From Eledone cirrhosa (Eukaryota), in the NCBI GenBank assembly GCA_964016885.1, contig OZ024753.1, positions 20,026,001-20,090,000 on the forward strand: a stretch of DNA of 64,000 nt, in the 5' to 3' direction. The position numbers and the translations under genes are program-made. This document shows, in pieces, positions 3,780 through 54,013 of the stretch. The notes beneath the pieces are model-generated. The model worked only from the letters and a program-made list of their open reading frames with translations, was not told the DNA's origin and made no database searches. Position 1 is the stretch's first letter, and each line of letters begins with the position of its first letter.

Positions 3780-4360
3780 GTGTCAGGTGACCAGTTGGAG
3801 CTACTAGTAACATGTATCCCAGTACAACCTGTCCCATGGTCGGGTCGTTCGCGACTAAACTGGCAACCCCACCACGGTTTCTTGGACTAAAAACAAAACC
3901 TGTCAAAGGGCAAAGGAGCTCTTAAGAGTCAATGGCCATCCAAAATCACCTGGAGAGATGACCCCTGAGCCTTCGTCAAAGCAGAATTCTAGGAGAAGGA
4001 AAACTCTGATATAACACCTGCAACCCTGATAGTATCCAATGATGTTGACTTGTTCTTCTTTTTGGTAAATATCATCTTGGTTAAGGGACTGGGACTGGCT
4101 TTGTGCAGTGCCTTTGCTCACTATAAAAGCTTCACAGCACAGGCATTGCTTTATATCTGGAGATCTCTCTGCACTTGTCGTCACATGGTACCATGGGCCC
4201 AACACTATGTGTCAATAAATGTCACAAGTGTAGTGATTGTACCAGAGTTTTCAAGTCGCTGGCTGGAGTAAAAAGTCACACTCGTTCAGCGCATTGGTAG
4301 GGGTTCTCCTACATGGATATAAAGTAGTGGCTGTACTCGGAAACGAGTTGGCAGCCACCA
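3780..4360 (+). mobile_element. Non-autonomous bipartite RTE-derived element, family A, near full length
   Basis: RTE 5'UTR-like motif CTAGGAGAAGGAAAACTCTGAT; 3' half has a C2H2 remnant ([16 protein letters not shown]); ends GGCAGCCACCA + (TATG)n like the RTE LINE end at 19602. Confidence 0.8.
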
Positions 4361-4754: not shown

Positions 4755-4791
<37 letters not shown>

Positions 4792-4960: not shown

Positions 4961-4962
4961 AT

Positions 4963-5414
4963 AAGGGCAAAGGAACTCTTAAGAGTCAATGGCAATCCAA
5001 AATCACCGGCGGAGATGACCCCTTAGCCTTTGTCAAGGCAGAATTCTAGGAGAAGGAAAACTCTGATATAACACCTGCAACCCTGATAGTATCCAATGAT
5101 GTTGACTTGTTCTTCTTTTTGGTAATTATCATCTTGGTTAAGAGAGTGGGACTGGCTTTGTGCAGTACCTTTGCTCACTATAAAAGCTTCATGACACAGG
5201 CATTGCTTTATATCTGGAGATCTCTCTACACTTGTCATCACATTGTACCATGGGTCCAGCACTATGTGTCAATAATTGTCACAAGTGTAGTGTTTGTACC
5301 AGAGTTTTCAAGTCGCTAGCTGGACTAAAAAGTCACACTCGTTCAGCGCATCGGTAGTGGTTATCCTACATGGATATAAAGTAGTGGCCGTACTCGAAAA
5401 GGAGTTGGCAGCCA

Positions 5415-5417
<3 letters not shown>
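4963..5417 (+). mobile_element. Family A copy, 5'-truncated, in tandem with the previous copy
   Basis: Closely matches 3906-4360; followed by (TA)n to ~5750. Confidence 0.85.
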
Positions 5418-16679: not shown

Positions 16680-17000
16680 GTCAGGTTGCGCTTCAGCGCT
16701 ACTGACAACATGTAACCCAGTACAACCTGTGGAACGTCAGGTTGACTGCGACCAAACCGGCGGCAAGTCCATTAAACTTGCTTGGTGTGGAGATTATGGA
16801 CACCCTGCAAAATGAAACACAAGACCAATGAAAGGGCGAAGTAAGTCAGGACAGTCAACGACCATCTAATAACGATTTTTTTGTGGACTGAGAGACTCCT
16901 AGTCTTCATTAAGACATCTCTCTAGGAGAAGGTCATTCTGATATAAAGCCTGCGACTGCGTTTGAATACAATGATGGGAACCAGTTATACTTTTTCGATA
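16680..17000 (+). mobile_element. Diverged 5' half of RTE-derived family A/B
   Basis: gtcaggt..aacatgtaacccagtacaacctgt ... ctaggagaaggtcattctgatata. Confidence 0.7.
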
Positions 17001-17184
17001 AATGCCTTCGCTGTTCAGAGAGTAGCCAACACAAGACAAGCCAACACTAGAGCAAGAATGACGGGTCATTTTACTGACATGGCTTTAAATAGGCTGTTTG
17101 CATAATTGCAAACGAATCGAAATTTATTAATATTCGAAAAACTCAGATTACATTTATTATATATATATATATATAAATATATGA

Positions 17185-17628: not shown

Positions 17629-17769
17629 TGTATGTATAAATTTAAGATAGCTATACTCTGTAACTTTTTGAGTAACTTGTTATGGCCATCTCCCAATACT
17701 TGGAAACATCATTATACATACATACATTCATACATACATAGATACATACATACATAGATACATACATAA

Positions 17770-18400
17770 TGATAGCTGCCTCTCGTTATCGAGTATGGCC
17801 ATCGCACGAAATACCATTATTAATAATTATTAATTAATTCTATCGTGCAATGTCTGTGCGTGAAGATATTTTTTAAAGTGACGAAAGACTGTGCACTGAG
17901 CCAATCCCACTCTCTGAGCTACAGTAGCTATAACCCGAAAAGAAGAAAAGATCAGCATCATCGGTAACTACTGAGCCGCAGGTTTTATATCGGTGTTATC
18001 CCAGTTTCCTGAGTTGCCTTCTCCTAGAAGAATGCCCTGACAAAGGCTAGGAGTCCTTTACTCCCAGTGGTTTAACCGCGTGATCGGGTATCTGGTCCGA
18101 AAATTTTTGTCCCCGCGCTTATATAAAAACATGTATACATGTATATACATATATACATATATATACATATATACACATGTATACATGTATATACATTGTT
18201 TACACATTTTTGGATGGCCGTTGACTCTTATGAGTTCTTCCGCCCTTTGTCAGGATTTGTTTTTTTCCTACAGGGTGTCCAAAATCACCCTCCTCACCAA
18301 ACAAGCTTGGTGGAGTTACCGGTTTAGTCGCCGATGACCCGACCATGCGACAGGTTGTACTGGGTTACATGTTACTAGTAGCACTCAAGAGTCCCCGGAC
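17770..18400 (-). mobile_element. Non-autonomous RTE-derived family B, full length
   Basis: Shares its 5' segment and CTAGGAGAAGG motif with family A; ends CTCGATAACGAGAGGCAGCTATC + (TATG)n; copy at 46884-47408. Confidence 0.8.
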
Positions 18401-18450
18401 ATACAACACATACATACATACATACATACATACATACATACATACATACA

Positions 18451-18480
<30 letters not shown>

Positions 18481-18481
<1 letters not shown>

Positions 18482-19426
18482 GTTGCCCGGAGGCTCCAGC
18501 GTGAGAGTAATATAGATAAGGAAAGCGGTCTATCTTGGACCAACAACCGCTATATTGACTCCCACTTTGAAAGATACGCTTTTGCAATCCAAGAACAGGA
18601 AATCAACAGAAAATACCTGATTCACAAAAGAGATAGGATTGCAGGCAAAACATCTAGATGTTACAACAAGTGCAGACTCTGCAGAATTAACATCGAAGGT
18701 GTCAACCATGTAATATGCAGCTGTCCAAAGATGTCATTGCGGTACTATCTACCTATGAGTTGGCCAATGCAATCCGTAGAAAAGTTAGCCCCGACAATAA
18801 ACACATTAAGAAGCTACAGCAATGTGGAAGAGATGCATGTACATAATATGAAAGAGTACAGATATAATATGGGACCGGGAAAAGAAGGCATGTACACTAG
18901 TGAAAGTTAGCTGCCCAGCAGATGCCAATATAATATCAAAGATTAGTGAAAAGGAGAATATCTATGCAGAACCAATTAGAAATCTGCAGATTCTCCACCC
19001 TGATTATACCTTCAGATTTATACCTGTGATTGTTAGGGCACTGGGATATGTTAGTAACTGCCTCAATACAAATCTTGACGGGCAAGGCTTCACAGAAACA
19101 GAAAGAACACAACTAGTTAGGAAATTACAAGTACAATCCATTAATGGAACAGTACAAATATGTAAAACATTCCAAAAATTCTGCATCTAATAACTGCATG
19201 TACACATGTGCAGATACAAATCATATGCACATGCACACATACAACTGCACACATACAACTCAAAACATCCACATCCACACATACAATAACATCCATATCT
19301 ACACATGCATACATAATCTACCTAGTTGATATTGTGTAAATTCCAATAAGATAGTCGTGTATCTATGTTAGAAACCGACTCTCTCTCTATTGGGAACACT
19401 TTGTGAAATTATAAAACCAGAAGAAC
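18481..19426 (+). mobile_element. R4/Dong-type non-LTR retrotransposon, 5'-truncated copy with internal deletions
   Basis: CCHC and RLE remnants, common 3'UTR, end AAAACCAGAAGAAC; (CATA)n on both sides. Confidence 0.9.
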
Positions 19427-19471
19427 ATACATACATACATACATACATACATACATACATACATACATACA

Positions 19472-19503
<32 letters not shown>

Positions 19504-19601
19504 CATACATATACATATATACATATATACATATATACATATACATACATACTCACACACACATATATACATACATACATATACATACATGCATACATAC
19601 A

Positions 19602-20756
19602 TGATGGCTGCAAACTGCTAAGAGTATTGCAATCGCTTGACAGATTCAGATGTGGGACGCTGGAATATGGCTTCTCCAGCCTGCTAGGGACTTGCACTCC
19701 TTCACACACTGACGACAACTATGGAACTCCCTGGCTTGAGGTCCTGCATCAGGTTGCCCGTGAACTCTCACAACACTGTGGAGATCATAGTTCACTGGTT
19801 CTCTTTGAACATGGCTGCGACTGTGGCTCCTGAGACCAGATTTGCTCAAGCAAATTTTTCCACACTCAGGGCACTTCAATTCAATGGAGACAGATCGTTT
19901 TGCGAGATACACCAGGGCATTGCTTACGCACATCCCCTTTGATCTTCCCGTGATCTATGCGTCTGTCCTCAAAATGATGGACCCATCATTCACCATTCCA
20001 CGCTAAGTTTCTCTTTCAAGAGCTTCTATCTCCCAGTCAGCCACCAACAAACCAGCTTTTTTTCAATGAGTCCTTTACACAATCCATGAATCGGAGCTTT
20101 GGTTTGTGAGGTTGTCTCTTACCCTCACAAAGCTCGCCATACAAGAGTTGTTTTGGGATTCAATCATCCTCCATTCTGCAGAGGTGTCCGGTCCATCGCA
20201 AACGCTGTTGGTGGATGATACTCTCAATGCTCCGACACTCACTTCTCTCAAGGACCTCAACATCACTCACAAGGCATCTGCCACTTAAAACCAAGCAGCA
20301 TTCTGAGACACTGCTAATGAAACCGTTCCAGTCTGTGGATATGCAGTTTGTAGGCAACCCATGTCTCACAGGCATACAGCGAAGCTGACAGTACACATGC
20401 AGCCTACACTCTCACCTTGGTCCTCATTGTGATTCCTCGCCTGCACCAAAGACGGTCGTTGAGCCTTCCAAATGACTCACTTGCCTTACTTACGTAGACC
20501 AACTTCTGCATCCAGAGAGCAGGCCACACTCACAGTACTCTCCAAATACACAAATGTGTCAGCAGCCTTCAGCTTTTGACCGTATACGTATATGGAGGGT
20601 TCATTGAAAACTTTATCCGGAGCAGGCTGGTACATGACGACAGTCTTCTTCAGGCTTATTGTCAGTCCCAAATCACTGCACACGTTGGAAAAAGAATCCC
20701 TAAGGTGTTACATGTCACTCTGGGAGTGTGCAAAAGACATCTCAATCATCTGCATA
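19602..20756 (-). mobile_element. RTE LINE 3' fragment (RT C-half + C2H2 fingers)
   Basis: Begins at YADD; LGLTISLKKT, RLRWTGHLCRM, CPECGKICLSKSGLRSHSRSH, CRQCVKECKSLAGWRSH; ends GCAGCCATC + (TATG)n. Confidence 0.9.
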
Positions 20757-21126
20757 TATACATATACATACATACATACATATACATACATATACATATA
20801 TACATATACATACATACATATACATAAATGTGCATACATATATATATATACATACATATACATATATACATATACATACATACATACATACACACACATA
20901 CATACATACATACATATATACATACATACATACATACACCCACCCATACATACATACTTGCACACACACATACATAGATACACACATACATACACCCACA
21001 CCCACATACATACATACACCCACCCATACATACATACATACATACATACATACATACATACATACATACATACATACATACATACACACCCATACATACA
21101 TACACACACCCACACATACATACACA

Positions 21127-21166
21127 ATGGCTGCCCCCTCGTTATCGAGTATGTCCATTGCACGAG
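21127..21166 (-). mobile_element. Family B 3' end (split copy)
   Basis: atggctgccccctcgttatcgagtatgtccattgcacgag matches the first ~40 bp of 17770 and 46884. Confidence 0.75.
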
Positions 21167-21274
21167 AAAAAAAAATTAATAAATAAATAAAAAATAAAAT
21201 AAAAATAAAAAAAGAAATATATATATATATATATATATAATATAAGATCAAAAGATGGTTAAAGGAGTTCCATG

Positions 21275-21560: not shown

Positions 21561-22435
21561 TACATATACATATATGCACACACATACACACACACACACA
21601 TATACATTAATAACAATAATAATAATAATAACAACAATAATAATAACGATAACAACAATAATAATATACATATACATATATATATACACATACAAGCACA
21701 CACATAAACATATCTATACACACACACAAACGATAGCAACTAACAGCGTTGCGATCGAATGTGGCTTTTTAGCCCAGCCAATGATCTAAAATGTCTTGCA
21801 CAGAGTCGGCAACCAAAACATTCACTGGGAATAGTCGGCTGTGGTTGGAGTTCATGTACTTTTGCATGTCGCTTGAGCCCTCCTGCTGACTTACATTCTC
21901 TACCACATGTTTGGCAAGCATGATGAGTAGCATCTCCAACAGCAGCCTGGTAGTCAACCACTGGTCTTACTTTATGACTGCGAAGATGACTTTCGAGTCC
22001 AGCTTTGCTTAGTCAGAGTCTCGCACAGACGCTGCATGTCAGCACCATAGGAAGACCCTCGCCGTCTGGAAGTTCAACAGCAATGCCCTTCCTCACATCC
22101 CGCTTTACTTTTTCGTATGCGATTCGAGATGCCTCAAAGGCAACTTTTCCCTCATATACAGTCTTTCACCATTTATTATGATCAGCAGCAATATTTTCCC
22201 ATGTATCAGCAGAGATGCTAGCGTCTTTCAAAGAGGCTTTCAAGGAATCCTTATACCTCTTTTTTGGTTTATGTGGCGGTCGTTTTCCTTTAACCAACTC
22301 TCCATAAACGAGTTGTTTTGGTATTCTAGAATCCTTCATCCTGGCAAGGTGACCACTCCAACGGAGTCATTGCTTAAGCACAAGAGCTTCTATAAGGTCA
22401 CACATAGAGCTTTCCAAAATCTTGACATCACGTCG

Positions 22436-23146
22436 TCATGCCTTCATGTCGTCATGGAAAGACCTAACTAAAGCAAGGAATGTATCAGGGCAACCAAGTT
22501 TCTGGAGAACCTTCCATAATGCATTTCTGTTAACAGTATCGAAAGCTTTTGTCAGATCGACAAAAACCTGATACAGATCCAAGCCTTGTTCCATGCACTT
22601 CTCCTGGGGCTGTCTAGCTGAGAAGATCATATCAGTAGTGCCGCGTCCAGCACGAAAACCAGATTGACTTTCAGGAAGAACACAATCTGCAATGTGTGTC
22701 AGCAGACGGTCCAGAGGCACCCTACAAAAAACTTTCCCTACGACAGAAAGCAATGATACACCTCTGTAGTTCCCACAATCATTCCTGTTACCCTTTCCCT
22801 TGTACAAGACCACCATTACTGCATCTCCCCAGTCCTCAGGTACGGATTCATTAGCCCATATCCTGCCAAACAAAGAGTGAAGATGTTGCAGGAGTCTCTC
22901 ACCACCATATTGTAGGAGCTCAGCATGTATGCCATCCATACCTGGAGATCTTCCACTGTTCAGCTTCGAAATAGCCACTGCAACCTCCACAAGCGTCGGA
23001 GGTTCTGCGAGAGCTACTTTCACGGGACTTTCTGGAATGAGATTGAAGAAATCTTCACTGACGACAGACGGCTGATTCAAAAGATCATCAAAGTGCTCTC
23101 GCACTTCGTAGAATTCCTTGTGAGTCACGAAGAAGTTCTTTGCCAT
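22436..23146 (-). pseudogene. RTE reverse transcriptase N-terminal part
   Basis: SPGMDGIHAE, YKGKG..DCGNYRGVSLLS, ESQSGFRAGRGTTDMIF, FVDLTKAFDTV. Confidence 0.92.
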
Positions 23147-24302
23147 CCTTGCTGCGAAGCGGTGTCACCAGAGAAGAAGACGGTCCATAAACCTCACGCA
23201 AGAGACTGTACAACAGCTTTGTGTTATTGGAATCTGACGCAGTTTGTATCTCACCAGCCTTCTCACTCCACCACTGATCCTTCATCTGAGAAAGACTCCG
23301 CCTAACACGTGATTTTACATCCTTGAGTTCCTCATGCAACGTATTCCTCTCCTGTGGTTTTGCCGTCAAGTAGCGTGACAGAGCACGCCTCTTATCAGCC
23401 AAAAAGTCTTCTATATGTACATCATTCTCATTAAACCAGTCCTGATGTTTTCTATGCACCAATCCCAGAACACGCCTGCCTACATCATAAACCGACTTTT
23501 TAAGGGTCGGCCAAGCCTCACCAAGATCTGCAGCCTGCATCTCTTCTTCCAATGTCCTCTTCACATTTTTATCCTTAAGACGAGCAGCATTCAAACTTTT
23601 CAGCAGGGCAACACCAGGAGCCCGGATTTTACGTTTAGTGTGTAGTTTCACTTTTACGCGTACCAGGTGGTGGTTCGTCCAGCACTCAGCTCCACGAAGA
23701 GCACGAACACACTGCACATCCTGTCTGTCACGCATCCTGACTAGGACGTAGTCCAAAAGATGCCATTCCTTAGATGCAGGATGCATCCATGTGGTCTTGA
23801 ATTTGTTCTTTTGTTGGAACATGGTGTTGGTAACATACAGATCCAGCTCCTCACACATATGCAGCAGGAGCATACCATTGTTGTTACACTTTCCCACCCC
23901 ATGCCTTCCGATTACATTCCATGTGTTAAAATCCCTACCCACTCTAGCATTGAAGTCACCAAGCACGATGACTTTGTCTGCCTGAGGGATATTTCTTAAA
24001 ACACCTTTCAAGGCATGGTAAAAGAACACTTTTTCTTCATCGACAGAATTCATAGTTGGAGCATACACACTCACCAGGGTCGCATATCTTCCTTTGTCCA
24101 GCAGAACTCTCATGGACATAAGACGCTCACTAATCCCTACTGGGAATTCTTCTAATTTATTCACAAGTACAGTCTTAACAGCAAATCCTACCCCAGCCTC
24201 TCTTCTGGTTCCTTCATCTCTTCCATTACAGAAGAATGTATATTCTCTACAAAATTCTGTAAGATGACCATCTCCAGCTAACCTCGTCTCAGATAAAGCC
24301 AC
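23088..24302 (-). pseudogene. RTE apurinic-type endonuclease domain ORF
   Basis: ALSETR, GVGFAV, SVYAPT, LGDFNARVG, TWMHP..WHLLDYV, CWTNHHLV. Confidence 0.92.
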
Positions 24303-24649
24303 GATGTCAAGATCTTAACGTCGAAGCTCCTTTGCAACAAGAGCGGTCCTTCGTTCAGGACGCTCCAAAGAATCCCTGTCAAGCAGCGTCCGTACGTTCC
24401 AGCAGCCAAGACTAAATGCCTTGTTTGGCTCTATTACAAAGGCAAGATGACGAGCGGGCCAAGGCTGTGATAACCTGGGGCCCCTGCCCTTATTGCCAAT
24501 GATCTTTTTTGTTCCAGAACCTAAATTGCCAATTATCTCTTTTATATTGTTCTGGAACATCATTGAATTGGAAAAAATAAAAAAAAAATTATAATAATAG
24601 TAACAATAATAATAATAATATTAATACACTATTAATAATTATTAATGCA

Positions 24650-24928
24650 CTCGTGCAATGCCTGTGCGTGACGAATATTTTTAAAGTAAGGAAAGACTGT
24701 GCACTGAGCCAATCCCACTCTCTGAGCGACAGTAGCTATAACCCGAAAAGAAGAAAAGATCAACATCATCGGTAACATCTGAGCCGCAGGTTTTATGTCG
24801 GAGTTAACCCAGTTTCCTGAGATGCCTTCTCCTAGAAGAATGCCCTGAAAAGGGCTAGGGGTTCATCACTCCCAGTGGTTTAACTGCACGATCGGGCATC
24901 CAGCCCGATTATTTCTATGTCCCCGCGC
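24650..24928 (-). mobile_element. Family B body (other part of the split copy)
   Basis: Matches 17843-18118. Confidence 0.8.
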
Positions 24929-25699
24929 AAAAAAAAAAACTCACTTATTGACACTTATACATACGACATACACACACGCGCATACGGATGCGCGCACACA
25001 CATGCATACATACGCGCGCACACAGCAACACTCATAGATACAAACAAACACACACACGCTACTCACTTACACACACACACACATATATATATATATATTA
25101 TATATATATTACCAGCATTACTGATACAAGATTACAAGATTATGTCAACTGTTGACTTTCAAGATTTTGTATAGTTGAAGCCGTTCGTATTACAGTCCAG
25201 TATTATTATAATTGCTTTAAGGCATAGAGATATGGCTCTCCACGCTCTGAGCTTAAATCACGCCGAGGTCAACCTTGCCTTTCATCCCCACGGAGTCAAC
25301 AAAAGAGAGTACCAGTAATGCGCTGGACCAGTGGCTGGATCCGTGCCAAAAGCAGAATAAATATTATTATTAAAAATGTTTTCTTAAGGCCATGTCGCTG
25401 GTGATGGTGATGGCGGCGGTGGTGCCGGTGGTGGTGGTGGTGGTGGCAGTTGATGTTGTTGTTGTGTTGTGTGCGTGTGTGTGTGTGTGTTTTGTTATTT
25501 TGAGTTTTTTTGTTTGTTTGTGTTTTTTTTTTTTAATCGTTTGATGCCGCTGTTGTTGTAAATGTTCATTTCAATTCATTCTGAAGCTGTTGTTATATGC
25601 ATGTATGTATGTATGTATGTATGTATGCATGCATACATACATACATACATACATACATACATACATACATACATACATACATACATACATACATACATA

Positions 25700-28600
25700 A
25701 TTCCATCAGTCAACGCGATCAATCGCATATTTTGGCGTGGGAGACTATTTATTAAATTTAAGATGAATACTATCTCCGACAGTAATGCCACAACTACAGC
25801 CAGGTTGAATAACTGGTTATTCTTCTAACTATCCCTTCTGAAGACAACCTTTTATTCGAATTCGTAGAGATATCCGACTAAATACATAATTCATTTTACA
25901 AGGATTTGCTACAAACAGCATGGTTGAACACAATATCAATAAGAAAATTAAGGAAGTATCGAAGACAAATAACAAAGAAGGTGATCAAACTTTATTCACT
26001 TGTAGCTACTGAAGAAACCGAAATTATAAATCGCATTTCTCTTGGAGTTGCGAACTTAATAATGATTTATTTAATTGTTATAAAATGGCAAAAAAATCCT
26101 TCCATTGGCTATATGAATAGAATGAAGCTACACTGGGACGAAATGCACCCAGAGCTAAATTATTTCACAGCGAAACAATTGCGCCAACAACAGATAAATA
26201 TTATTAATTATAAGTCGCCCACAACAAACATGGAATCAACAACACGTGCTACACATCGCCATGCTACTAGACTTCCTAGCAGCCAGGTCGAACAGCGCCT
26301 TGAAACAACTATGCCTGTAAGAAACTTGACACCACCTGTACCATCTAAGTCTACCTCGATTGCTGGGGAAAAACACTATCGATAAAATTAATAATCGAAG
26401 AAATAATAATAATAATCGAATAAATGTGACACCACGTATACCATCCGAGTCTACCTCGACTGTTGTGGAAAATACTATCGATAATTGTTTCTACTTTTGG
26501 CACAAGGCCAGTAATTACCCAGTGCATTACCCTGGTACTTTATTTTATCGACCCCGTAAGGATGAAAGGCAAAGTCAACCTCGGCGGGATTTGAACTCAG
26601 ATCGTAAAGGGACGTAACTATGCTGGAAAGCATGGCGTCCGACCCTCTACTGATGCTGCCAAATGATAATCAAAAGTATAAACAATTGAAAATTTCTCTC
26701 AACGAAATCTTCCAGAGAAAAAATTAAGTCATGTACAAATATCTCTCTGGCTGAATGTGTTAAAATGACAATGGTGAATAAAAAACCAAATAATGAAATA
26801 CTACGTGTTATTGACGAAATAGGGGATGAATATTTACGACGGATAAAAACCCCGACATTTTGGCAAATCAACGCCTGTTTATATGCCTTAGCAATGACAG
26901 TGAAGCATTATCTTGGTGATAGCAGAGATATTAACAAGAACAAAACACCACCAAAAATACCATTATATATAACTAAAATAGAAAAAAAGAGTGCTGACCT
27001 ACGAAAAAACATAGGACATGTGATAATGCTCTTTACATGAAAACAAACACAAAAAAACCTCACTCCTTACCAACAAAGAGTGAAAAATAAAATAGAGACG
27101 ATGTTTGGTAACAGTAGAACCAGAACTCTCCAATATAAGCTGATCACCCTCAAACAAGAATTGAGAACTGTTAGCGAAAAACGCCGATACCTGAAGAAGG
27201 TAGATGAGAGAAAAATGCTTAATAAAAGATTCAGACGAAACCAAACTTCAGTCTATAGAGATATGAAGGGCAAAATAATAAGTGTCACTGAGGCCCCATC
27301 CCAGAAAGACATAGATTCCTTTTGGAGAAAAAATATGGGGTGAAAAGAAGAATTTCAACCAAGATGCAGTGTGGCTAAGAGAAATCTGAAAGAACTATTG
27401 CTCCTAAACTACAACAAAAACATACGAAATAAGTGAGGGTAGCCTTGAAACTGTGATAGGAAAACTCTAAGATAAGAAAACACAAGGAAGAGACATGATT
27501 GTCGGCTACTGGTACAAAAAACTAATATTCTATCGGAGGTATCTTACTGACCTCTACCAACAAGTTCTTAAGGGAGATACACTTATACCAGAATGGTTGA
27601 CATTAGCACAAACGTTACTGGTCCCCAAGAACAATGACACCCACTTGGCAAAAAACTAACGACCCATTCCATGCCAGAACCTGATGTATAAGAGGTATAC
27701 AGCCTGCCTCAAACTATTCCTCCAAGATCACTGTGAAAATGATAACATCATCACAGATGAACAAGCAGCTGGAAAGAAAAGGGTTTGGGGATATGCTGAA
27801 CAACTCCTAATCAACAAAACTGCGATGTCGGAGGTGCGACAACTTAGTAGGAATATGACTACAGTCTGGCTGGACTACAAGAAAGCTTTCGATTCTGTTC
27901 CCCACTCTTGGATGATAGAGGCCCTCCAACTTGCTAAAGTCCCAGACATTATTGTCAGAGCCATAGAGAGGCTGTCTTCTTCTTGGGCTACTATCCTAAG
28001 GTTAAAGACAGAGAGGGAGGACTCTATTTTCACTGATAAAATAAAATATTGCAGGGGTATTTTTCAGGGGGACAGTCTCTCTGTGATATTGTTCATCTTG
28101 TCATTAAACCCGTTGCCCTTTCTGCTCAAGAAATGTGAGGCATACATCATTGGCTCAGAGGAGGACTAAAATACAAATCTAACCCATAACTTCTTTGTGG
28201 ACGATCTGAAACTCTATGCCAAGAACATGGATGGGATGAAGAAAAATCTTGAACTGGTTAAAACGTTCTCAAAGGATATAGGAATGGAGTTTGGCCAGTA
28301 TAAATGCTCATACATGACTGTAAAGCGGGGGAAAACAACAACCCAATCTAGCAACATTGTCATCAATGGTCTAACTGTTTCACCGGTATCTGATGAGGAC
28401 TGATACAGATACCTGGGGATAGATAAGAACATATCATATAAGGGTATATGTAATAACGAACGCGGAACCAGGGAATACTACACCCGATTAAGAAAGATCT
28501 GGTCATCGGAACCCTCTGAGCAAAACAAAACAGTGGCTCACAGTGTGTTTCCTGTGCCTGTCCTAACACCAATGTTTGGAATACTCAATTGGACGATAGA

Positions 28601-30000
28601 TGAAATCCGAGCAGTTGATGTTGGAACTCGAAAAATACTGAACAACACCGGAACCTTCCACATCAACAGTGACATAGGCCGCCTATAGTTCAAACGTAAG
28701 CAGGGAGGCAGAGGCCTAACATCAGTGCAGACAACATTTGAATGTCGCATCATATGTCTCCGACAACATCTACGAACCTCGAAGCGTAGGAGCCCGCTTC
28801 TCGAGCAAGTCTATCTGCATGAAACAGATAAGATCATGAGAGTTGGGAAGGAACTCCTTGAGAGATATTCCATGTGTGATAATCAAAAACTCACACCCCG
28901 GGATGTCGCTCAGCAGTATCGCAGTGAATCTATGGATAAAAAACTGCATGCCTATCAGCAAAATATCATGCATGGATATGTTGCCAGGAAGCTCCAGAGT
29001 AAGAGTAATATAGATAAGGAAAGTAGTCTATCTTGGACCAACAACTGCTATATTGGCTCCCACTTTGAAGGATATGCTTTTGCAATCCAAGAACAGTAGA
29101 TTAACACGAAATACCTGATTCACAAAAGAGATAGGGATGCAGGCAAAACACCTAGATGTGATAACAAGTGCAGACACTGCAGAACTAACATCGAGGATAT
29201 CACCCATGTGATCAGCAGCTGTCCAAAGATGTCATCGCGGTACTATCTACCTATGAGGCATGATGTAGTGGCCAAAACACTGTACAATGCAGTTCTTAAA
29301 AAAGATAGCCCCGATAATAAACACATTAAAAGCTACAACAATGTGGAAGACATCCATGTACATAATATGAAAGAGTACTGGTGGAATGTTCCAGTAAAAA
29401 CCCCAATAAAATGCAGGCATAACAGACCAGATATTATGATATGGGACAGGGAGAAGAAAACATGTACAGTAGTGGAAATTAGCTGCCCAGCAGATGCCAA
29501 TATTATATCAAAGATTAGTGAAAAGGAGAATAGTTATTCAGAACTGATGAGAAATCTGCAGATACTCCACCCTGATTACACCTTCAGATGTATGCCTGTG
29601 ATTATTGGGGCACTGGGATATGTTAGTAACTGCCTCGATACAAATCTTGAGAAGCTAGGCTTTCAAAGGAACAGAAAGAACACAACTAGTTAGGAAATTA
29701 CAAGTACAATCCATTAATGGAACAGTACAAATATGTAAAACATTCCAAACATTTTGCATCTAATAACTGCATATACACATGTACAGATACAAAGCATATA
29801 CACATGCACACATACAACTCAAAACATCCACATCCACACATACAATAACATCCATATCTACACATGCATGCATGCAGGCATACATACATATCTACCTAGT
29901 TGATGTTATGTAAATTCCAATGAGAGAGTCTTGTGTCTATGTTAGAAACCGACTCTCTCTCTATTGGTAAAACTTTGTGAAATTATAAAACCAGAAGAAC
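25700..30000 (+). mobile_element. R4/Dong-type non-LTR retrotransposon, full length, inactivated
   Basis: N-terminal WDEMHPE..KQLRQQ; RT EQAAG, WLDYKKAFDSVPHSW, GIFQGDSLS, FVDDLKL; CCHC CRHC..EDITHVISSC; RHD; RLE RPDIM..VVEISCP; (CATA)n on both flanks; many stops. Confidence 0.93.
26481..26661 (-). mobile_element. SINE family 1 inserted into the Dong copy
   Basis: Absent from the homologous site in the next copy (actatcgataatgataatcaa at ~30820-30840). Confidence 0.9.
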
Positions 30001-30051
30001 ATACATACATACATACATACATACATACATACATACATACATACATACATA

Positions 30052-33000
30052 CAACGCGATCAGTCGCATATTTTGGCGTGGGAGACTATTTATTAAATTT
30101 AAGATGAATACTATCTCCGACAGTAATGCCACAACTACAGCCAGGTTGAATAACTGGTTATTCTTCTAACTATCCCTTCTGAAGACAACCTTTTATTCGA
30201 ATTCGTAGAGATAACCGATTAAATACATAATTCATTTTACAAGGATTTGCTACAAACAGCATGGCTGAACACAACATAAACAAAAATATTAAGGAAGTAT
30301 CGAAGACAAATAACAAAGAAGGTAAAAAAATTGTATTCAGTTGTAGCTACAGAAGAAACAGAAATTATAAATCGCATTTCTCTTGGAGTTGCGAACTTAA
30401 TAATGATATATTTAATTGTTATAAAATGTCAAAAAAAATCCCTCAATTGACTATATGAATAGAATAAATCTACACTAGGACGAAATGCACCCAGAGCTAA
30501 ATTATTTCACAGCGAAACAATTACGCCAACAAGCGACGTTTGTTGAACGTAAAAATAAGATAAATATTATTAATTGTAAGTCCCCCACAACAAACATGGA
30601 ATCAACAACACGTGCTACAGATCGCCATGCTACTAGACTTCCTAGCAGCCAGGTCGAACAGCGCCTTGAAACAAGTATGCCTGTAAGAAACTTGACACCA
30701 CCTGTAATGCTGGGGGAAACACTATCGATAATAATAATAATCGAAGAAATAATTATAATAATCGAATAAATGTGACACCACGTATACCATCCGAGTCTAC
30801 CTCGGATGTTGTGGAAAATACTATCGATAATGATAATCAAAAGTATAAACAATTGAAAATTTCCCTCAACGAAATCTTCCAGAGAGAAATTAACTCATGT
30901 ATAAATATATCTCTTGCTGAACGTGTTAAAATGACAAACGTGAATAAAAAAACTAAATAATGAAATACTACATGTTATTGACGAAATAGGGGATGAATAT
31001 TTACGACGGATAAAATCCCAACATTTTTGCAAATCAACGCCTGTTTATATGCCTTAGCAATGATAGTGAAGCATTATCTCGGTGATAGCAGAGATATTAA
31101 CAAGAACAAAACACCACTAAAAATACCATCATATATAACTAAAATAGAAAGAAAGAGTGCTGACCTACGAAAAAAACCATAGGATATGTGGCAATCCTCC
31201 TTACATGCAAACAAACACAAAAAAACCTCACTCCTCACCAACAAAGAGTGAAAAATAAAATAGAGACGACGTTTGGTAATAGTAGAACCAGAACTCTCCA
31301 ATATAAGCTGATCACCCTCAAACAAGAATTGAGAGCTGTTAGCAAAAAACGCCGATACCTGAACAAGGTAGATGAGAGAAAAATGATTAATAAAACATTC
31401 AGACGAAATCAAACATCAATCTATAGAGATATGAAGGGCAAAATAATAAGTGTCACTGAGGCCCCATCCCAGAAAGACATAGATTCCTTTTGGAGAAAAA
31501 TATGGAGTGAAAAGAAGTATTTCAACCAAGATGCAGTGTGGCTAAGGGAAATCCGAAAGAACTATTGCTCCTACACTACAACAAAAACATACGAAAGAAG
31601 TGAGGGTACCCTTGAGACTGTGATCGGAAAACTCCAAGATAAGAAAACACCAGCAAGAGACATGTTTGTCGGCTATTGGTACAAAAAACTAATATTCTAT
31701 CGGAGGTATCTTACTGACCTCTACCAACAAGTTCTTAAGGGAGATACACTTACACCAGAATGGTTGATATTAGCACAAACGTTACTGGTCCCCAAGAATA
31801 AAGACACCCACTTGGCAAAAAACTACCGACCAGTTGCATACCAGAACCTGATGTATAAGATGTATACAGCCTGCCTCAACCTATTCCTCCAAGATCACTG
31901 TGAAAATAATAGCATCATCACAGAGAACAAGCAGCTGGAAAGAAAGTCGTGTGGGGATGTGCTGAACAACTCCTAATCAACAAAACTGTGAGTCGGAGGT
32001 GCAACAACTTAGGAGGAATATGACTACAGTCTGGCTGGACTACAGGAAAGCTTTCGATTCTGTTCCCCACTCTTGGATAATAGAGGCCCTCCAACTTGCT
32101 AAAGTCCCAGACATTATTGTCAGAGCCATAGAGAGGTTGTCTTCTTCTTGGGCTACTATCCTAAGGTTAAAGACAGAGAGGGAGGACTCTATTTTCACAG
32201 ATAAAATAAAATATTGCAGAGGTATATTTCAGGGGGACAGTCTCTCTGTGATATTGTTCATCTTGTCATTAAACCCCTTGTCCTTTCTGCTCAAGAAATG
32301 TGAGGGATACATCATTGGCTCACAGGAGGACAGAAATACGAACCTAACCCATAAATTCTTTGTGGACGAACTGAAACTCTATGCCAAGAACATGTATGGG
32401 ATGAAGAAACATATTGACTGGTTAAAACGTTCTCAAAGGATATAGGAATGGAGTTTGGACAAGATAAATGCTCATACATGACTGTAAAGCGGGGAAAAAC
32501 AACAACCCAATCAAGCAACATTATCATCAATGGTCTAACTGTTTCACCTGGGGATAGATGAGAACATTTCCTATAATGGTATCTGTAATAAAGAACGCGT
32601 AACTAGGGAATACTACACCCGATTAAGAAAGATCTGGTCATCAGAACCCTCTGCGCAAAAAAAAACTGTGGCTCACAATGTGTTTGCTGTGCCGGTCCTA
32701 AAACCAAAGTTTGGAATACTCAACTGGACGACAGGCGAAATCCGAGCAGTTGCTGTTGGAGCTCGAAACATTCTAAACAACACCGGAAACTTCAACATCA
32801 ACAGTGACATAGACCGCCTTTACTTGAAACGTAAGCAGGGAGGCAGAGGCCTAACATCAGTCCAGACAACATTTGAATGTCGCATCATATCTCTCCGACA
32901 ACATATACGAACCTCGAAGCGTAGGAGCCCGCTTCTCGAGCAAGTCTATCTGCATGAAACAGATAAGATCATGAGAGTTGGGAAGGAACTCCTTGAGAGA

Positions 33001-34037
33001 TATTCCATGTGTGATAATCAAAACCTCACACCCCGGGATGTCGCTCAGCAGTATCGCAGTGAATCCATGGATGAAAAACTGCATGCCTATCAGCAAAAAT
33101 CATGCATGGATATGTTGCCAGGAAGCTCCAGAGTGAGAGTAATATAGATAAGGAAAGTAGTCTATCTTGGACCAACACCGCTATATTGGCTCCCACTTTG
33201 AAGGATTCGGTTTTGTAATCCAAGAACAGGAGATTAGCACGAAATACCTGATTCACAAAAGAGATAGGGATGCAGGCAAAACACCTAGATGTGATAACAA
33301 GTGCAGACTCTACAGAATTAACATAGAGGATATCACCCATGTCATCAGCAGCTGTCCAAAGATGTCATCGCGGTACTATCTAACTATGAGGCATGATGTA
33401 GTGGCCAAAATACTCTACAATGCAGTTCGTAAAAAAGATAGCCACGATAATAAACACATTAAAAGCTACAACAATGTGGAAGACATCCATGTACATAATA
33501 TGAAAGAGTACTGGTGGAATGTTCCAGTAAAAACCCCAATAAAATGCAGGAATAACCGACCAGATATTATGATATGGGACAGGGAGAAGAAAACATGCAC
33601 AGTAGTGGAAATTAGCTGCCCAACAGATGCCAATATTATATCAAAGATTAGTGAAAAGGAGAATAGTTATTCAGAACTGATGAGAAATCTGCAGATACTC
33701 CACCCTGATTACACCTTCAGATGTATGCCTGTGATTATTGGGGCACTGGGATATGTTAGTAACTGCCTCGATACAAATCTTGAGAAGCTAGGCTTCACAG
33801 GAACAGAAAGAACACAACTAGTTAGGAAACTACAAGTACAATCCATTAATGGAACAGTAAAAATATGTAAAACATTCCAAAATTGTTGCATCTAATAACT
33901 GCATATACACATGTACAGATACAAAGCTTATATACAAGCACACAAACAACTCAAAACATACACATCCACACATACAATAACATCCATATCTACACATGCA
34001 TGCATACATATCTACCTAGTTATGTAAATTCCAATGA
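30052..34037 (+). mobile_element. R4/Dong-type element, second near-full copy, head-to-tail with the first
   Basis: Same domains (ORFs 31188-31976, 31999-32445, 33167-33895); separated from copy 1 by ~50 bp of (CATA)n; lacks the last part of the 3'UTR. Confidence 0.93.
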
Positions 34038-34077: not shown

Positions 34078-34109
<32 letters not shown>

Positions 34110-45200: not shown

Positions 45201-45318
45201 CTTGGGCCACGTACTGCCGAGATCCTCCGCAAGATCGGAGCCTCGGCGGCACGTCAAAGGAGGGATCTCCGCCAGGTTGAGTGGGTGTTGCAGCGGGTGT
45301 CACTGACTACAGAGAGGT
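45201..45318 (+). pseudogene. Fragment of a CRE-clade non-LTR retrotransposon RLE C-terminus
   Basis: GC-rich island translating LGPRTAEILRKIGASAARQRRDLRQVEWVLQRVSL, then (frameshift) LQRG; resembles the CRE pattern LGP.A..FL..IG...A....D.R....L.QRLS..IQRGN. Confidence 0.6.
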
Positions 45319-46737
45319 TGTCTTCTTCTTTGGCTAGTATCCTAAAGTTAAAAACAGAGAAGGAGACAGCTTCTCTATAGTCCTGATATTAGTCTCTGGG
45401 ACTTTAGCAAGTCGGAGGGTCTCTATCTTCCAAGAGTGGGGAAACATAATTAAATTCTCTCCTGTAGTCCAGCCAGACTGTAACCATATCCATCTAAGTT
45501 GTCGCACCTACGATTTCGCAGTTTTATTAATTAGGAGTTGTTCATCACACCCCCAAACACCTTTCTTTCCAGCTGCTTGTTCCTCTGTGATGATGTTATT
45601 ATTTTCACAGTGATCTTGAAGAAATAGGTTCTGGTATACAATGGGTTGGTAGTTGTTTGCCAAGTGGGTGTTTTTGTTCTTGGGGACCAGTATTGTTTGT
45701 GCTAATGTCAACGATTCTGGTATAAGTGTATCTCCCTTGAGAACTTGTTGGTAAAAGTCCATAACATACATCCGATAGAATATCAGTTTTTTGTACCAGA
45801 AACCAACAATCATGTGTCTTCCTGGTGTTTTCTTATCTTGGAGTTTTCCTATCACAGTCTCAAGGGTATCCTCATTTATTTAATATGTTTTTGTTGTAGT
45901 CTAGGGATAATAGTTCTTTTGGATTTCTTTTAGCCACACTGCAACTTGGTTGAAATTCTTTTTTTCACCCCAGGATTTTCTCAAAAGGAATATATGTCTT
46001 TCCAGGACGGGGCCTCAGTGACATTTATTATTTTGCCCTTCATATCTCTATAGTCAGATGTTTGGTGTCATCTGAATCTTTTATTAATTACTTTTCTTTC
46101 ATCTACTCTCTTAAGGTAGCGGCGTTTCTCTCTGACAGCTCTCAATACTTGTTTGAGAGTGATCATCTTATATTGAAGAGTTCTGGTTGTAGTGGCACCA
46201 AATATAGTTTCAAACATCCAGTCCAAACCCCAATAAAATGCAAGCATAACATATCAGATATAATGATATGGGACAGGAAAAAGAAGGCATGCACAGTAGT
46301 GGAAGTTAGCTGCCCAGCAGATGCCAATATAATTTTAAAGATTAACGAAGCGGAGAATACCTTTGCAGAACTAATGGAAACTTTGCAGGTACTCCACCCT
46401 GACTATACTTTCAGATTTATATCTGTAATTATTGGAGCACTCGGGTGTGTTAGTAACTGCCTCAGTACAAATCTTGAGAAGCTGGACTTCACAGGCACAG
46501 AAAGAACTCAACTAATTAGGAAATTCCAAGTACAATCCATTAATGGAACATTAAAAATATGTAAGACATTCCAAAGATTCTACAAGTAATAACTGCATAT
46601 ATGCATGTATACACATTCATGTATGCAGACATACATATCTTCATAGTTGATGTGTAAATTCCGATCAGAGAGTCTTGTGTTAGAAATCGACTCTCTTTCT
46701 ATTAGTAAAGATTTATAAAATTATAAAACCAGAACAA
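45311..46737. mobile_element. Rearranged, more diverged R4/Dong copy (+ / inverted / +)
   Basis: 45311-45368 is an RT piece on +, ~45370-46190 an N-terminal/RT piece on -, 46217-46737 RLE + 3'UTR on +. Confidence 0.88.
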
Positions 46738-46883
46738 AATACACACACATACATAAATACATGCAGTCATGCATACATACATAATACATGCATGCATGCA
46801 TGCATACACACATACATACATCCATACAAACATACATACATGCATACATACATATTTAAATGCATGCATACATTCATAGATGA

Positions 46884-47408
46884 CGATAGCTGCCCCTCGC
46901 TATCGAGTATGGCCATTGCACGATAGATCATTATTAATAAATATTAATTAATTCTATCGTGCAATGCCTGTGCAAGAAGATATTTTTTATAGTGAGGAAA
47001 GACTGTGCACTGAGCCAATCCCACTCTCTGAGCTACAGTAGCTATAACCCGAAAAGAAGAAAAGATCAACATCATCGGTAACTACTGAGCCGCAGGTTTT
47101 ATATCGGAGTTATCCCAGTTTCCTGAGTTACCTTCTCCTAGAAGAATGCCCTGAGAAAGACTAGGGGTCCTTCACTCCCAATGGTTTAACCGCGTGATAC
47201 ATATGTATATACATATTTACACATTTTTGGATGGCACTTGACTCTAATGAGTTCTTCCGACCTTTGTCAGGTTTTGTTTTTTGTCCTGCAGGGGGTCCAA
47301 AATCACCCTCCCCACCAAGTAAATTTGGTGGGGTTGCCGGGTTAGTCGCCGAAGACCCGACCCTGCGACAGGTTGTATTGGGTTACATGTTACACGAGAG
47401 TGACACGA
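46884..47408 (-). mobile_element. Family B copy
   Basis: Matches 17770-18400. Confidence 0.85.
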
Positions 47409-47437
47409 CATACATGCATACATAGATATATACATAC

Positions 47438-47742
47438 ATGGTGGCTGCCAACTCGTTTTCGAGTACTGCACTACTTTATATCCATGTAGGAGAACCCCTA
47501 CCGTTGCGCTGAACGAGTGTGACGTTTTAGTCCAGCCAGCATCTTGAAAACTCTGGTACAAACACTTGTGACAATTATTGACACATAGTGCTGGGCCCAT
47601 GGTACCATGTGACGACAAGTGCAGAGAGATCTCCAGATATAAAGCAATGCACGTGCCGTGAAGCTTTTATAGCGAGCAAAGGCACTGCACAAAGCCAGTC
47701 CCACTCTCTTAACCAAGATGATATTTACCAAAAAGAAGAACA
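47438..47742 (-). mobile_element. Family A copy, 3' half only
   Basis: Reverse complement of ~4050-4360. Confidence 0.88.
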
Positions 47743-47783
47743 TACATACATACAAACATACATACATACATACTTACATAAAG

Positions 47784-49730
47784 ACAGATAAAGTAAAATG
47801 TCACAGGTGTATATTTCGGAGGGACAGGCTCTCTGTGATATTATTCATCTTGTCATTAAACCCCTTGTCCGATCTGCTCAATAAATCTGAGGGATACATC
47901 ATTGGCTCACAGGAGGACAGAAATACGAACCTAATCCATAAATTATTTGTGGACGAACTGAAACTCGATGCCAAGAACATGGATGGGATGAAGAAAAATA
48001 TTGACCTAGTTACAACGTTCTCAAAGGATATAGGAATGGAGTTTGGCCAAGATAAATGCTCATACATGACTGTAAAGCGGAGAAAAACAACAACCCAATC
48101 TAGCAACATTGTCATCGATGGTCTAACTATTTCAGCGATATCTGATGAGGACTGTTACAGATACCTGGGGATAGATGAGAACATATCCTATAATGGTATC
48201 TGTAATAAAGAACGCGTAACCAGGGAATACTACACCTGATTAAGAAAGATTTGGTCATCGTAACTCTCCGCACAAATCAAAACAGTGTCTCACAATGTGT
48301 TTGCTGTGCCTGTCCTAACACCAACGTTTGGAATACTCAATTGAACGATAGACGAAATCCGAGCAGTTGATGTTGGAACTCGAAAAATTCTAAACAACAC
48401 CGGAAATTTCCACATCAACAGTGACATATACCGCCTTTACTTGAAACGTAAGCAGGGAGGCAGAGGCCTAACATCAGTCCAGACAATATTTGATTGTCGC
48501 ATCATATCTCTCCGACAACATATACGAACCTCGAAGCGTAGGAGCCCGTTTCTCGAGCAAGTCTATCTGCATGAAACAGATAAGATCATGAGAGTTGGGA
48601 AGGAACTCATCGAGAGATATTCCCTGTGTGATAATCAAAAACTCACACCCAGGGAAGTCGCTCAGCGGAATCGCAGTGAATCCATGGATGAAAAACTGCA
48701 TGCTTATCAGCAAAAAATCATGCATGGATATGTTGCCAGGAAGCCCCAGAGTGAAAGTAATATAGATAAGGAAGTAGTCTATCTTGGACCAACAACTGCT
48801 ATATTGGCTCCCACTTTGACGGATATGCTTTTGCAATCCAAGAACGGGAGATTAACACGAAATACCTCATTCACAAAAGAGATAGGGATGCAGGCAAAAT
48901 ACCTAGATGTGATAACAAGTGCAGATTCTGCAGAAATAGCATCGAGGATATCACCTATGTCATCAGCAGCTGTCCAAAGATGTATCGCGGTAGTATCTAC
49001 CTATGAGGCATAATGTAGTGGCACAAACACTGTACAATGCAGTTCGTAAAAATGATAGCCCCGATAATAAACACATTAAAAGCGATGTGGAAGACATCCA
49101 TGTACATAATATGAAAGAGTACTGGTGGAATGTTCCAGATAAAACCCCAATAAAATGTAGGCATACCAGACCAGATATTATGCTCTGCGACAGGGAGAAG
49201 AAAGCATGCACAGTAGTGGAAATTAGCTGCCCAGTAGAAGCCAATATAATATCAAGGATTAGCGAAAAGGAAAATATTTATGCAGAAATGAAGAGAAATC
49301 TGCAGATACTCCACCCTGATTACACCTTCAGATGTATGCCTGTGATTATTGGGGCACTGTGATATGTGAGTAACTGCCTTAATACAAATCTTGAGAGGCA
49401 GGGCTTCACAGGAACAGAAAGAACACAACTAGTTAGGGAATTACAAGTACAATCCATTAATAGAACAGTAAAAATATGTAAAACATTGCAAACATTTTGC
49501 AACTAATAACTGCATATACACATGTACAGATACAAAGCATATACACATGCACACATACAACTCAAAACATCCACATCTACACATAAAATAACATCCATAT
49601 CTACACATGCATGCAGACATAATCAACCTACTTGATGTGTAAATTCCAATGAGAGAGTATTGTGTCTATGTTAGAAAACAACTCACTCTTTATTGTGAAA
49701 GAATTTGTGAAATTATAAAACCAGAAGAAC
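47784..49730 (+). mobile_element. R4/Dong copy, 5'-truncated within RT
   Basis: RT C-half, CCHC, RLE and end CCAGAAGAAC|ATACATAC. Confidence 0.92.
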
Positions 49731-49743: not shown

Positions 49744-50056
49744 TGGTGGCTGCCAACTCGTTTTCGAGTACGGCCACTACTTTATATCAATGTAGGAGAA
49801 CCCCTACCAATGAGCTGAACGAGTGTGACTTCTTAGTTCAGCCAGCGACTTGAAAACTCTGGTACAAACACTACACTTGTGAAAATTACTGACACATAGT
49901 GCTGGGCCCATGGTACCATGTGATGACAAGTGCAGAGAGATCTCCGGATATAAAGCAATACCTGTGCCGTGAAGCTTTTATAGTGAGCAAAGGCACTGCA
50001 CAAAGCCAGTCCCACTCTGTTAACCAAGATGATATTTACCAAAAAGAAGAACAAGT
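49744..50056 (-). mobile_element. Family A copy, 3' half only
   Basis: Reverse complement of ~4047-4360. Confidence 0.88.
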
Positions 50057-50803: not shown

Positions 50804-50891
50804 ATATATATATATATGTATGTACATATACACATATATATACATACATATATATATATATATATATACATACATATATATATATAGTGAT

Positions 50892-51106: not shown

Positions 51107-51116
51107 AAAAAAAAAT

Positions 51117-54013
<2,897 letters not shown>

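What the first reader, a model, noticed from the sequence alone, without database searches (positions are those of the whole stretch)
17710..21166. Strand-polarised nesting: RTE-type tails appear to provide Dong landing sites
Seen: along one (CATA)n tract the order is family B(-), Dong(+), RTE(-), family B(-). At 46217-50803 the order is Dong(+), B(-), A(-), Dong(+), A(-), A(-). Dong 3' ends meet RTE-type 3' ends tail-to-tail at 19426/19602, 46737/46884 and 49730/49744 (only ~13 bp apart). Where the tract reads TATG on + (3780-5417) family A is on +. Inference: RTE tails seed (TATG)n, Dong targets the complementary strand, and the tract grows as a self-reinforcing retroelement hub.
Basis: partly seen in the sequence, partly recalled or inferred. 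Interest (0 to 1): 0.7.

Follow-up and report, generated by a model that had tools for sequence, protein, structure and literature searches.

The report
Two retrotransposons share one microsatellite
Two unrelated jumping-gene families pile up in the same CATA/TATG repeat tracts facing opposite ways, most likely because each independently inserts on its own strand of an existing tract, not because one family's tails create landing sites for the other.

Summary
The element order, coordinates and strand polarity are real. A Dong/R4-like LINE lies with CATA on its sense strand. RTE-type LINEs and their short derivatives A and B lie with TATG on theirs. On 5' flanks, which cannot be an element's own tail, 13 of 13 scorable ends follow this rule.

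The claimed direction (RTE tails seed Dong sites) is not supported as a rule:
- Only 3 of 6 Dong 3' ends face an RTE-type tail.
- Head-to-head pairs are as common (3), and shuffled orders give ≥3 tail-to-tail pairs 53% of the time.
- Two of three Dong-bearing tracts have no RTE-type end where a seeder must sit.
- At two of the three cited junctions Dong is more decayed than its supposed host (one clearly, one not significantly).
- 9 of 11 RTE-type 5' ends also sit in microsatellite.

Best reading: both families target pre-existing (CATA)n/(TATG)n on opposite strands, and tail-to-tail pairs follow from that. The possibly new part is a Dong-like element using (CATA)n, where the papers read give (TAA)n. 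No genome was held, so the genome-wide test was not run.

The parts
17714..17770 (.). (CATA)n tract, 3' flank of family B copy
17771..18398 (-). Family B, non-autonomous RTE-type element; about 3-4% diverged
18399..18480 (.). (CATA)20 between the B 5' end and the Dong 5' end (head-to-head, 82 bp)
18481..19425 (+). 5'-truncated Dong/R4-like LINE (zinc knuckle region, start of RLE, 3' UTR); pN 0.085, pS 0.167
19426..19602 (.). (CATA)n spacer of tail-to-tail junction 1
19603..20752 (-). 5'-truncated RTE-type LINE (RT C-terminal part, C2H2-like fingers); about 8-9 disabling lesions per kb
20753..21127 (.). Degenerate (CATA/CA)n tract, 5' flank of the RTE and 3' flank of the B-like end
21128..21185 (-). 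B-like 3' end fragment, 6 differences in 51 columns from the majority of other B copies
21733..24940 (-). Second RTE-type LINE (APE + RT, internal deletion, about 2 lesions per kb). Its upstream region 24623-24940 is 86-88% identical to the body of family B, the likely 5' UTR from which A and B derive
25596..25699 (.). (TATG)9 joined to (CATA)18, a polarity flip; the Dong follows the CATA half
25700..29999 (+). Near full-length Dong/R4-like copy with a 182-bp SINE at 26481-26662; pN 0.022
30053..34037 (+). Second near full-length Dong copy, head-to-tail, lacking about 80 bp of 3' end; flanked by (CATA)14 and (CATA)18; no RTE-type element in this tract
45311..46738 (+). Old rearranged Dong copy: 46217-46738 (+), with an inverted piece 45358-46211; pN 0.11-0.12
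46885..47410 (-). Family B copy facing the older Dong tail-to-tail (146 bp)
47440..47742 (-). 5'-truncated family A copy; 38 bp of CATA to the next Dong 5' end (head-to-head)
47781..49729 (+). 5'-truncated Dong copy; pN 0.052
49745..50056 (-). 5'-truncated family A copy, 15 bp from the Dong 3' end
50165..50803 (-). Full-length family A copy; 5' flank is a TA/CATA tract
50887..51105 (+). tRNA-like SINE (label recalled, not tested) inside the same tract
51115..54012 (.). 2.9-kb (TA/CATA)n tract
54053..57236 (+). Dong copy at the right end of the second cluster, followed by 12 bp of CATA and unique DNA
3780..4359 (+). Family A copy in a TATG-on-plus tract; its 5' flank is microsatellite with no RTE-type end upstream
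4963..5416 (+). Family A copy, 5'-truncated
16681..17023 (+). Old A/B-like 5' part following a (TG)n tract, same polarity rule

Best explanation
Dong/R4-like LINEs and RTE-type elements sit in the same (CATA)n/(TATG)n tracts in opposite orientations, most likely because each family independently inserts into an already existing tract and primes on the opposite strand. Shown: the orientations, microsatellite on both sides of both families, a fixed Dong 3' junction register (…GAAGAA then CATA in 4 of 6 copies; the other two have altered ends), and mixed age order. Inferred: the Dong restriction-like endonuclease nicks the TATG strand and primes there, so its sense strand reads CATA. Inferred: the RTE endonuclease nicks the CATA strand, where the RNA's 3' UAUG-type repeats can pair with the primer, so RTE, A and B read TATG. 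Inferred: A and B are internally deleted RTE derivatives moved by RTE protein. Each insertion splits the tract and leaves target on both sides, and slippage plus RTE tails regrow it, so clusters form. With fixed opposite strands, any Dong followed by an RTE-type element is tail-to-tail, so those junctions say nothing about who came first.
For: 5' flanks are purine/pyrimidine-alternating microsatellite for 9 of 11 RTE-type ends (p=0.0002) and CA-type microsatellite for 5 of 6 Dong ends (p=0.001), against 0 of 11 control SINE copies; 10.9% of all window 30-mers meet the alternation test. Polarity holds at 13 of 13 scorable 5' ends. Tail-to-tail and head-to-head pairs are 3 and 3; shuffle P(≥3)=0.53. 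A at 3780, A at 50165 and the old copy at 16681 have microsatellite 5' flanks with no RTE-type 3' end upstream in the tract. A Dong tandem lies in a tract with no RTE-type element. Dong is more diverged than its partner at two of three junctions. In public runs, 86 contigs of X9 continue past the Dong 3' end with CATA repeats and then DNA that lies on nothing in the 3.2-kb reference holding A and B. About 4,800 reads in each of X12 and X13 run past an A-type 5' end with a consensus continuing ATACA, i.e. TATG-type upstream. Published passages: R4/Dong insert into microsatellites (PMC7998251, PMC3812793); RTE 3' repeats are proposed to pair with the target (PMC6007223).
Against: Only one 64-kb window, six Dong copies and about five tracts; no genome was held. 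The junction inside the finding's own interval fits RTE-first. Ages from 21128 leftwards fall in the order seeding predicts (B-like end, RTE, Dong, B). Ages rest on few copies and mix subfamily divergence with decay (pS>pN for the two older Dongs), and one of the two reversed contrasts is not significant (p=0.12). Four of the nine RTE-type 5' flanks could be tails of a co-oriented neighbour, and two more could be distal parts of a tail split by Dong. The RAD reads start at sites enriched in degenerate tracts, and pure repeat reads can be laid on the tracts, so they give no unbiased fraction. Nick positions and RNA pairing were not tested. RTE elements are reported to create repeats at their tails (PMC2887409), so some seeding must occur.
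Confidence: 0.65

Rival explanations
1. One reading: RTE-type tails create the (TATG)n tracts and Dong then inserts into those tails on the complementary strand.
For: Three tail-to-tail junctions exist. The RTE at 19603 is more decayed than the Dong facing it. Ages fall leftwards from 21128. RTE insertions are reported to add repeats at their 3' ends (PMC2887409). About 19,000-21,500 reads per RAD run have loose CATA ends beside the tract at the A 3' end (biased, see above).
Against: 3 of 6 Dongs face no RTE tail, and two of three Dong tracts lack an RTE-type end at the origin side. Head-to-head pairs are as common. Dong is more diverged at two of three junctions. RTE-type elements themselves have microsatellite at their 5' ends.
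Confidence: 0.15
2. Reverse direction: Dong copies or their CATA flanks found the tract, and A, B and RTE are later colonists of the spacers between Dongs.
For: In the 45311-57247 cluster the oldest element is a Dong at the left end, and all A and B copies between Dongs are only 2-4% diverged. The 25628-34107 tract holds Dongs only.
Against: A copies at 3780 and 4963 and the old copy at 16681 sit in tracts with no Dong. Five of six Dongs have CATA on the 5' side too, so they also entered a tract.
Confidence: 0.12
3. No active targeting: both families carry their own repeat tails, and elements accumulate passively in low-constraint DNA where tails expand and merge.
For: Passive accumulation near CA repeats has been proposed for Drosophila Waldo (PMC3812793). 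The window is repeat-rich.
Against: It does not explain polar microsatellite at 5' ends of independently truncated copies (13/13), its absence at 0 of 11 control SINE 5' ends, or the fixed Dong junction register.
Confidence: 0.08

Closest known systems
R4/Dong clade non-LTR retrotransposons (Dong of Bombyx mori, DongAg, DongBg, Darwinula Dong1/2; Dong-R4 of octopus annotations)
   Same: Single ORF with RT, a C-terminal zinc knuckle and a restriction-like endonuclease motif; no N-terminal zinc finger in full-length homologs; inserted in a microsatellite. Near full-length copies are about 4.1 kb, close to the 4.19 kb mean of active Dong-R4 insertions computed from Table 1 of PMC13282606.
   Different: The target here is (CATA)n. 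The passages read give (TAA)n for Dong in most insects, molluscs and cnidarians (PMC7998251, PMC3812793). No named Dong sequence was available for a tree.
RTE-clade LINEs with microsatellite 3' ends (lepidopteran RTEs, Bov-B, AfroSINE partners)
   Same: Single APE+RT ORF, very short 3' UTR ending in a simple repeat; repeat proposed to pair with the target (PMC2887409, PMC6007223).
   Different: Here copies lie inside long tracts on both sides, instead of unique DNA with a short duplication after a T stretch (the Tn-TA signature of PMC6007223 and PMC13295347, not seen or testable in a tract).
Bipartite non-autonomous RTE elements (RTESINE1/2, WALLSI3, Bov-A; PMC5786205)
   Same: A and B are non-coding, 530-640 bp. 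B's body matches the DNA directly upstream of an RTE ORF at 86-88% (A at 70%), and both end in a 3' motif shared with the RTE LINEs.
   Different: The exact parent LINE of A or B is not in the window; the 3' ends resemble the RTE at 19603 more than the RTE whose 5' region B matches.
Microsatellite-targeting LINEs and their tandem clusters (Waldo ACAY, Mino AC, Kibi TC, Koshi TTC, Togen TG)
   Same: A LINE family using a dispersed simple repeat as target; Waldo's ACAY includes ACAT.
   Different: Waldo, Mino, Kibi and Koshi are APE-type (clade labels R1/Tx1 recalled) and Togen is NeSL-related. None of the passages read describes two clades sharing one repeat on opposite strands.

Membership tests
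R4/Dong clade | RT domain in a single long ORF | tested here: met
   PF00078 hits; majority frame open for 906 codons
R4/Dong clade | C-terminal CCHC knuckle and restriction-like endonuclease (RH, PD, E motifs) | tested here: met
   RHD, RPDI and VVEISCP at 33389, 33557 and 33602, invariant across 7 homologs; copy 30053 has one knuckle Cys mutated, copy 18481 keeps it; homolog P0009 hits only R2 structures in the PDB
R4/Dong clade | No N-terminal zinc fingers (unlike R2, NeSL) | tested here: met
   No zinc-finger Pfam hit at the N-termini of 8 of 8 full-length homologs or the window N-terminal piece; criterion from PMC7998251
R4/Dong clade | Divergent N-terminal SANT/Myb-like domain | tested here: inconclusive
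   A conserved Trp-containing N-terminal block is visible, but no SANT/Myb Pfam hit at E≤5; the paper needed HHpred
R4/Dong clade | RT phylogeny groups with named R4/Dong | not testable with these tools
   All 39 homologs unnamed or 'hypothetical'; 0 named among the members read; atlas gave no clade name
Dong sensu stricto | (TAA)n target | tested here: not met
   5 of 6 copies have CATA-type repeats on both sides; none lies in TAA. It works like Dong with another target
RTE clade | Single ORF with APE then RT, no ORF1 | tested here: met
   PF03372 and PF00078; P0040 aligns from residue 1 at 24563 to the 3' end
RTE clade | Short 3' UTR ending in a microsatellite | tested here: met
   Stop codons within about 45 nt of TATG/TG repeats in both LINEs
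RTE clade | RT phylogeny with named RTE/Bov-B | not testable with these tools
   Homologs carry no clade names
Bipartite non-autonomous RTE (A, B) | 5' part homologous to an RTE 5' UTR | tested here: met
   B matches 24623-24940, ending 60 bp before the RTE start codon, at 86-88%; A at 70%. A chance insertion of a 3'-truncated B there is not excluded
Bipartite non-autonomous RTE (A, B) | 3' end shared with RTE LINE | tested here: met
   Shared terminal motif of about 33 nt
Bipartite non-autonomous RTE (A, B) | 5' self-cleaving ribozyme (some RTEs) | tested here: inconclusive
   No ribozyme family in Rfam for 50100-51150; a conserved hairpin among 4 copies with little covariation

The most novel reading that the evidence does not exclude
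A two-clade mutualism on one microsatellite. A Dong/R4 lineage switched its endonuclease target from (TAA)n to (CATA)n because RTE tails made that repeat abundant. Each family's insertion then makes fresh, strand-polarised target for the other, building self-growing retroelement arrays that hold a measurable share of this genome's LINE load.
Probability: 0.2. Interest if true: 0.6.

Novelty: new variant of a known kind. Interest (0 to 1): 0.3.

Why it matters
Microsatellite targeting by Dong and repeat tails of RTEs are each known. A Dong-like element on (CATA)n would be a natural target switch of a restriction-like endonuclease, useful for learning what sets specificity in R2/R4-type enzymes. 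Opposite-strand sharing of one repeat by two LINE clades would help explain local repeat hotspots and the failure of tetranucleotide markers in such genomes. The stretch is high-copy: about 4% of reads in two reduced-representation runs lay on 3.2 kb of it. Nothing here changes basic retrotransposition mechanism.

Tried and rejected
- Whole genome: none held, so the requested genome-wide count was not run.
- Exact search for the Dong 3' junction in metagenome and viral contigs: 0 matches each.
- Earlier scan notes by place, sequence and words: nothing.
- Read joints as a count of Dong-to-A/B junctions: the 15 joints shown (607 not shown) were tract-to-element or within-element, with about 20-40 letters on the short side. 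No listed piece spans the 15-bp Dong/A junction, so recurrence of that junction as a mobile unit is undecided.
- Target-site duplications to order insertions: unreadable inside the repeat.
- The two short A copies as one duplication around Dong 47781: rejected; 6.3% apart like other A pairs, 0 shared derived states.
- 24623-24928 as a separate B insertion: reinterpreted as the likely 5' UTR of the RTE at 21733.
- Clade names from protein clusters, atlas or Pfam: none.
- Ribozyme at the A 5' end: no Rfam hit.
- PMC3124438 passages: not relevant.

Full report
Setting. The window is AT-rich animal DNA (36% GC, no N) dense in simple repeats. It looks cephalopod-like to me from recalled repeat sequences; no call establishes the organism. 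No whole genome is held, so all counts come from this window plus one read lay.

Observation. The window holds six Dong-like copies, all on +: 18481-19425, 25700-29999, 30053-34037, 46217-46738 (with an inverted piece at 45358-46211), 47781-49729 and 54053-57236. It holds five family A copies, two full B copies, a B-like 3' fragment, an old A/B-like 5' part at 16681, and two RTE-type LINEs (19603-20752 and 21733-24940).

Identity of the Dong-like element. It has RT, a majority frame open for 906 codons, and a C-terminal zinc knuckle with RHD, RPDI and E-x-x-CP motifs conserved in 7 full-length homologs. One homolog hits only R2 proteins in the PDB. Eight of 8 homologs lack N-terminal zinc fingers. 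This fits the R4/Dong description in PMC7998251 (passages), but no named Dong was available for a tree.

Identity of the RTE-type elements. The LINE at 21733 has APE then RT in one ORF. Both LINEs share a 3' motif of about 33 nt with A and B. The body of B matches the DNA ending 60 bp upstream of that LINE's start codon at 86-88%, and A matches at 70%. A and B are therefore likely bipartite RTE derivatives of the kind described in PMC5786205 (passages).

Polarity. To avoid counting tails, I scored the 30 bases at 5' ends. Nine of 11 RTE-type 5' flanks are alternating microsatellite and 5 of 6 Dong 5' flanks are CA-type microsatellite, against 0 of 11 copies of a control SINE (Fisher p=0.0002 and 0.001); 10.9% of all 30-mers in the window meet the alternation test. 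The segment 24623-24928 was counted as the 5' end of the RTE at 21733, not as a twelfth element. Where polarity could be called, 8 of 8 RTE-type ends are TG-type and 5 of 5 Dong ends CA-type (13/13, p=0.0002; not fully independent). Four of six Dong 3' junctions have the same register, GAAGAA then CATA; the other two have altered ends.

Direction, geometry. Only 3 of 6 Dong 3' ends face an RTE-type 3' end; one faces another Dong and two face unique DNA. Head-to-head pairs also number three (82 bp, 38 bp, and one across a SINE and a 2.9-kb tract). With strands kept and order shuffled within tracts, ≥3 tail-to-tail pairs arise in 53% of 20,000 shuffles; one MITE-like element and one SINE were left out of the orders. 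A minus-strand seeder must sit at the right end of a CATA-on-plus tract. The tracts ending at 34107 and 57247 have none: an HMM of the ten 3' ends found those ten and nothing else better than E=2. A at 3780, A at 50165 and the copy at 16681 have microsatellite 5' flanks with no RTE-type end upstream in the tract.

Direction, age. Non-synonymous divergence from the majority of four core copies is 0.022, 0.024, 0.040, 0.052, 0.085 and 0.11-0.12 for the six Dongs. A copies are 2.0-3.4% from their majority and the two full B copies about 3-4.4%. Dong 47781 exceeds A 49745 without significance (p=0.12). However, the same-polarity tract continues right to the less decayed RTE at 21733, whose own 5' side carries a degenerate CA tract. 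These ages rest on few copies.

Reads. I laid 4 of 14 listed runs on 46880-50060; their relation to the window's source is not established. 522,242 of 12.5 million and 548,864 of 12.8 million RAD reads lay on it, so the families are high-copy. In X9, 86 contigs leave the Dong 3' end with CATA repeats followed by DNA not in the reference. In X1, another organism, one contig covers the Dong 3' region up to 49740, 11 bases into the CATA flank. About 4,800 reads per RAD run pass an A-type 5' end with a consensus continuing ATACA (five letters seen), meaning TATG-type DNA upstream. Read starts pile up at GCATGC and ends at AATT sites, so I infer a double digest biased to degenerate tracts; pure repeat reads can also be laid on the tracts. 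The reads support the polarity but give no unbiased fractions and no element-to-element counts.

Mechanism. Shown: opposite polarity, tract on both sides of both families, symmetric junction types, mixed age order. Inferred from target-primed reverse transcription: the primer strand is the one opposite the element's sense strand, so Dong primes on the TATG strand and RTE-type elements on the CATA strand, where their 3' repeats can pair (model in PMC6007223; abstract, introduction and passages). Each insertion leaves target on both sides, and slippage and RTE tails (PMC2887409, passages) regrow it. The hub is therefore real but two-way, and tail-to-tail pairs are a by-product. I put this at 0.65, RTE-first seeding at 0.15, Dong-first at 0.12 and passive accumulation at 0.08.

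Comparison and novelty. Passages of PMC3812793, PMC7998251, PMC3636483 and PMC2887409 give Dong as a microsatellite-targeting element, on (TAA)n where the repeat is named. PMC4640811 (passages) adds TG-targeting Togen, and PMC13295347 (passages) the Tn-TA signature of Bov-B. PMC13282606 and PMC8967140, passages only, report Dong-R4 and RTE as abundant or active in octopus without naming targets in the passages seen. Eight searches turned up no paper, in the listings and passages I saw, describing a (CATA)n-targeting Dong or opposite-strand sharing with RTE. I did not see Repbase, Dfam, Kojima and Fujiwara 2004 or any supplement, and these may already hold such a family. Verdict: real pattern, known components, a possibly new target variant, and a seeding claim that the window does not support as a rule. 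Interest 0.3.

Noticed in passing
47742 and 50056: Two independent family A copies are 5'-truncated within 4 nt of each other. On the + strand that point reads AGAAGAACA, the same letters as the Dong 3' junction. It could be a short subfamily, microhomology joining, or deletion between an A interior and a Dong end.
   Followed up: partly
25596-25699: (TATG)9 joined directly to (CATA)18 as a palindrome; the adjacent Dong follows the CATA half. Origin unexplained.
   Followed up: no
45311-46738: Dong copy with an inverted internal piece and about 1.4 kb missing; not a simple twin-priming layout.
   Followed up: no
24623-24940: Family B body lies directly upstream of an RTE ORF, giving in-window evidence for the bipartite origin of A and B.
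   Followed up: yes
51115-54012: 2.9-kb TA/CATA tract, far longer than any other here, between a SINE tail and a Dong 5' end.
   Followed up: no
37069-38535, 57813-58528, 21245-21523, 59280-61332: Long inverted-repeat (foldback or MITE-like) elements embedded in (TA)n tracts, a second microsatellite niche in the same window.
   Followed up: no
26481-26662 and ten other places: A 190-bp SINE-like family that avoids these tracts; one copy lies inside Dong 25700. Used as control.
   Followed up: partly
62607-63953: Another decayed RT-containing LINE fragment on the minus strand, about 27% identical to the RTE homolog; clade not determined.
   Followed up: no
17348-17628: 31-bp minisatellite, 9 copies at 94% identity, just left of the finding.
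   Followed up: no
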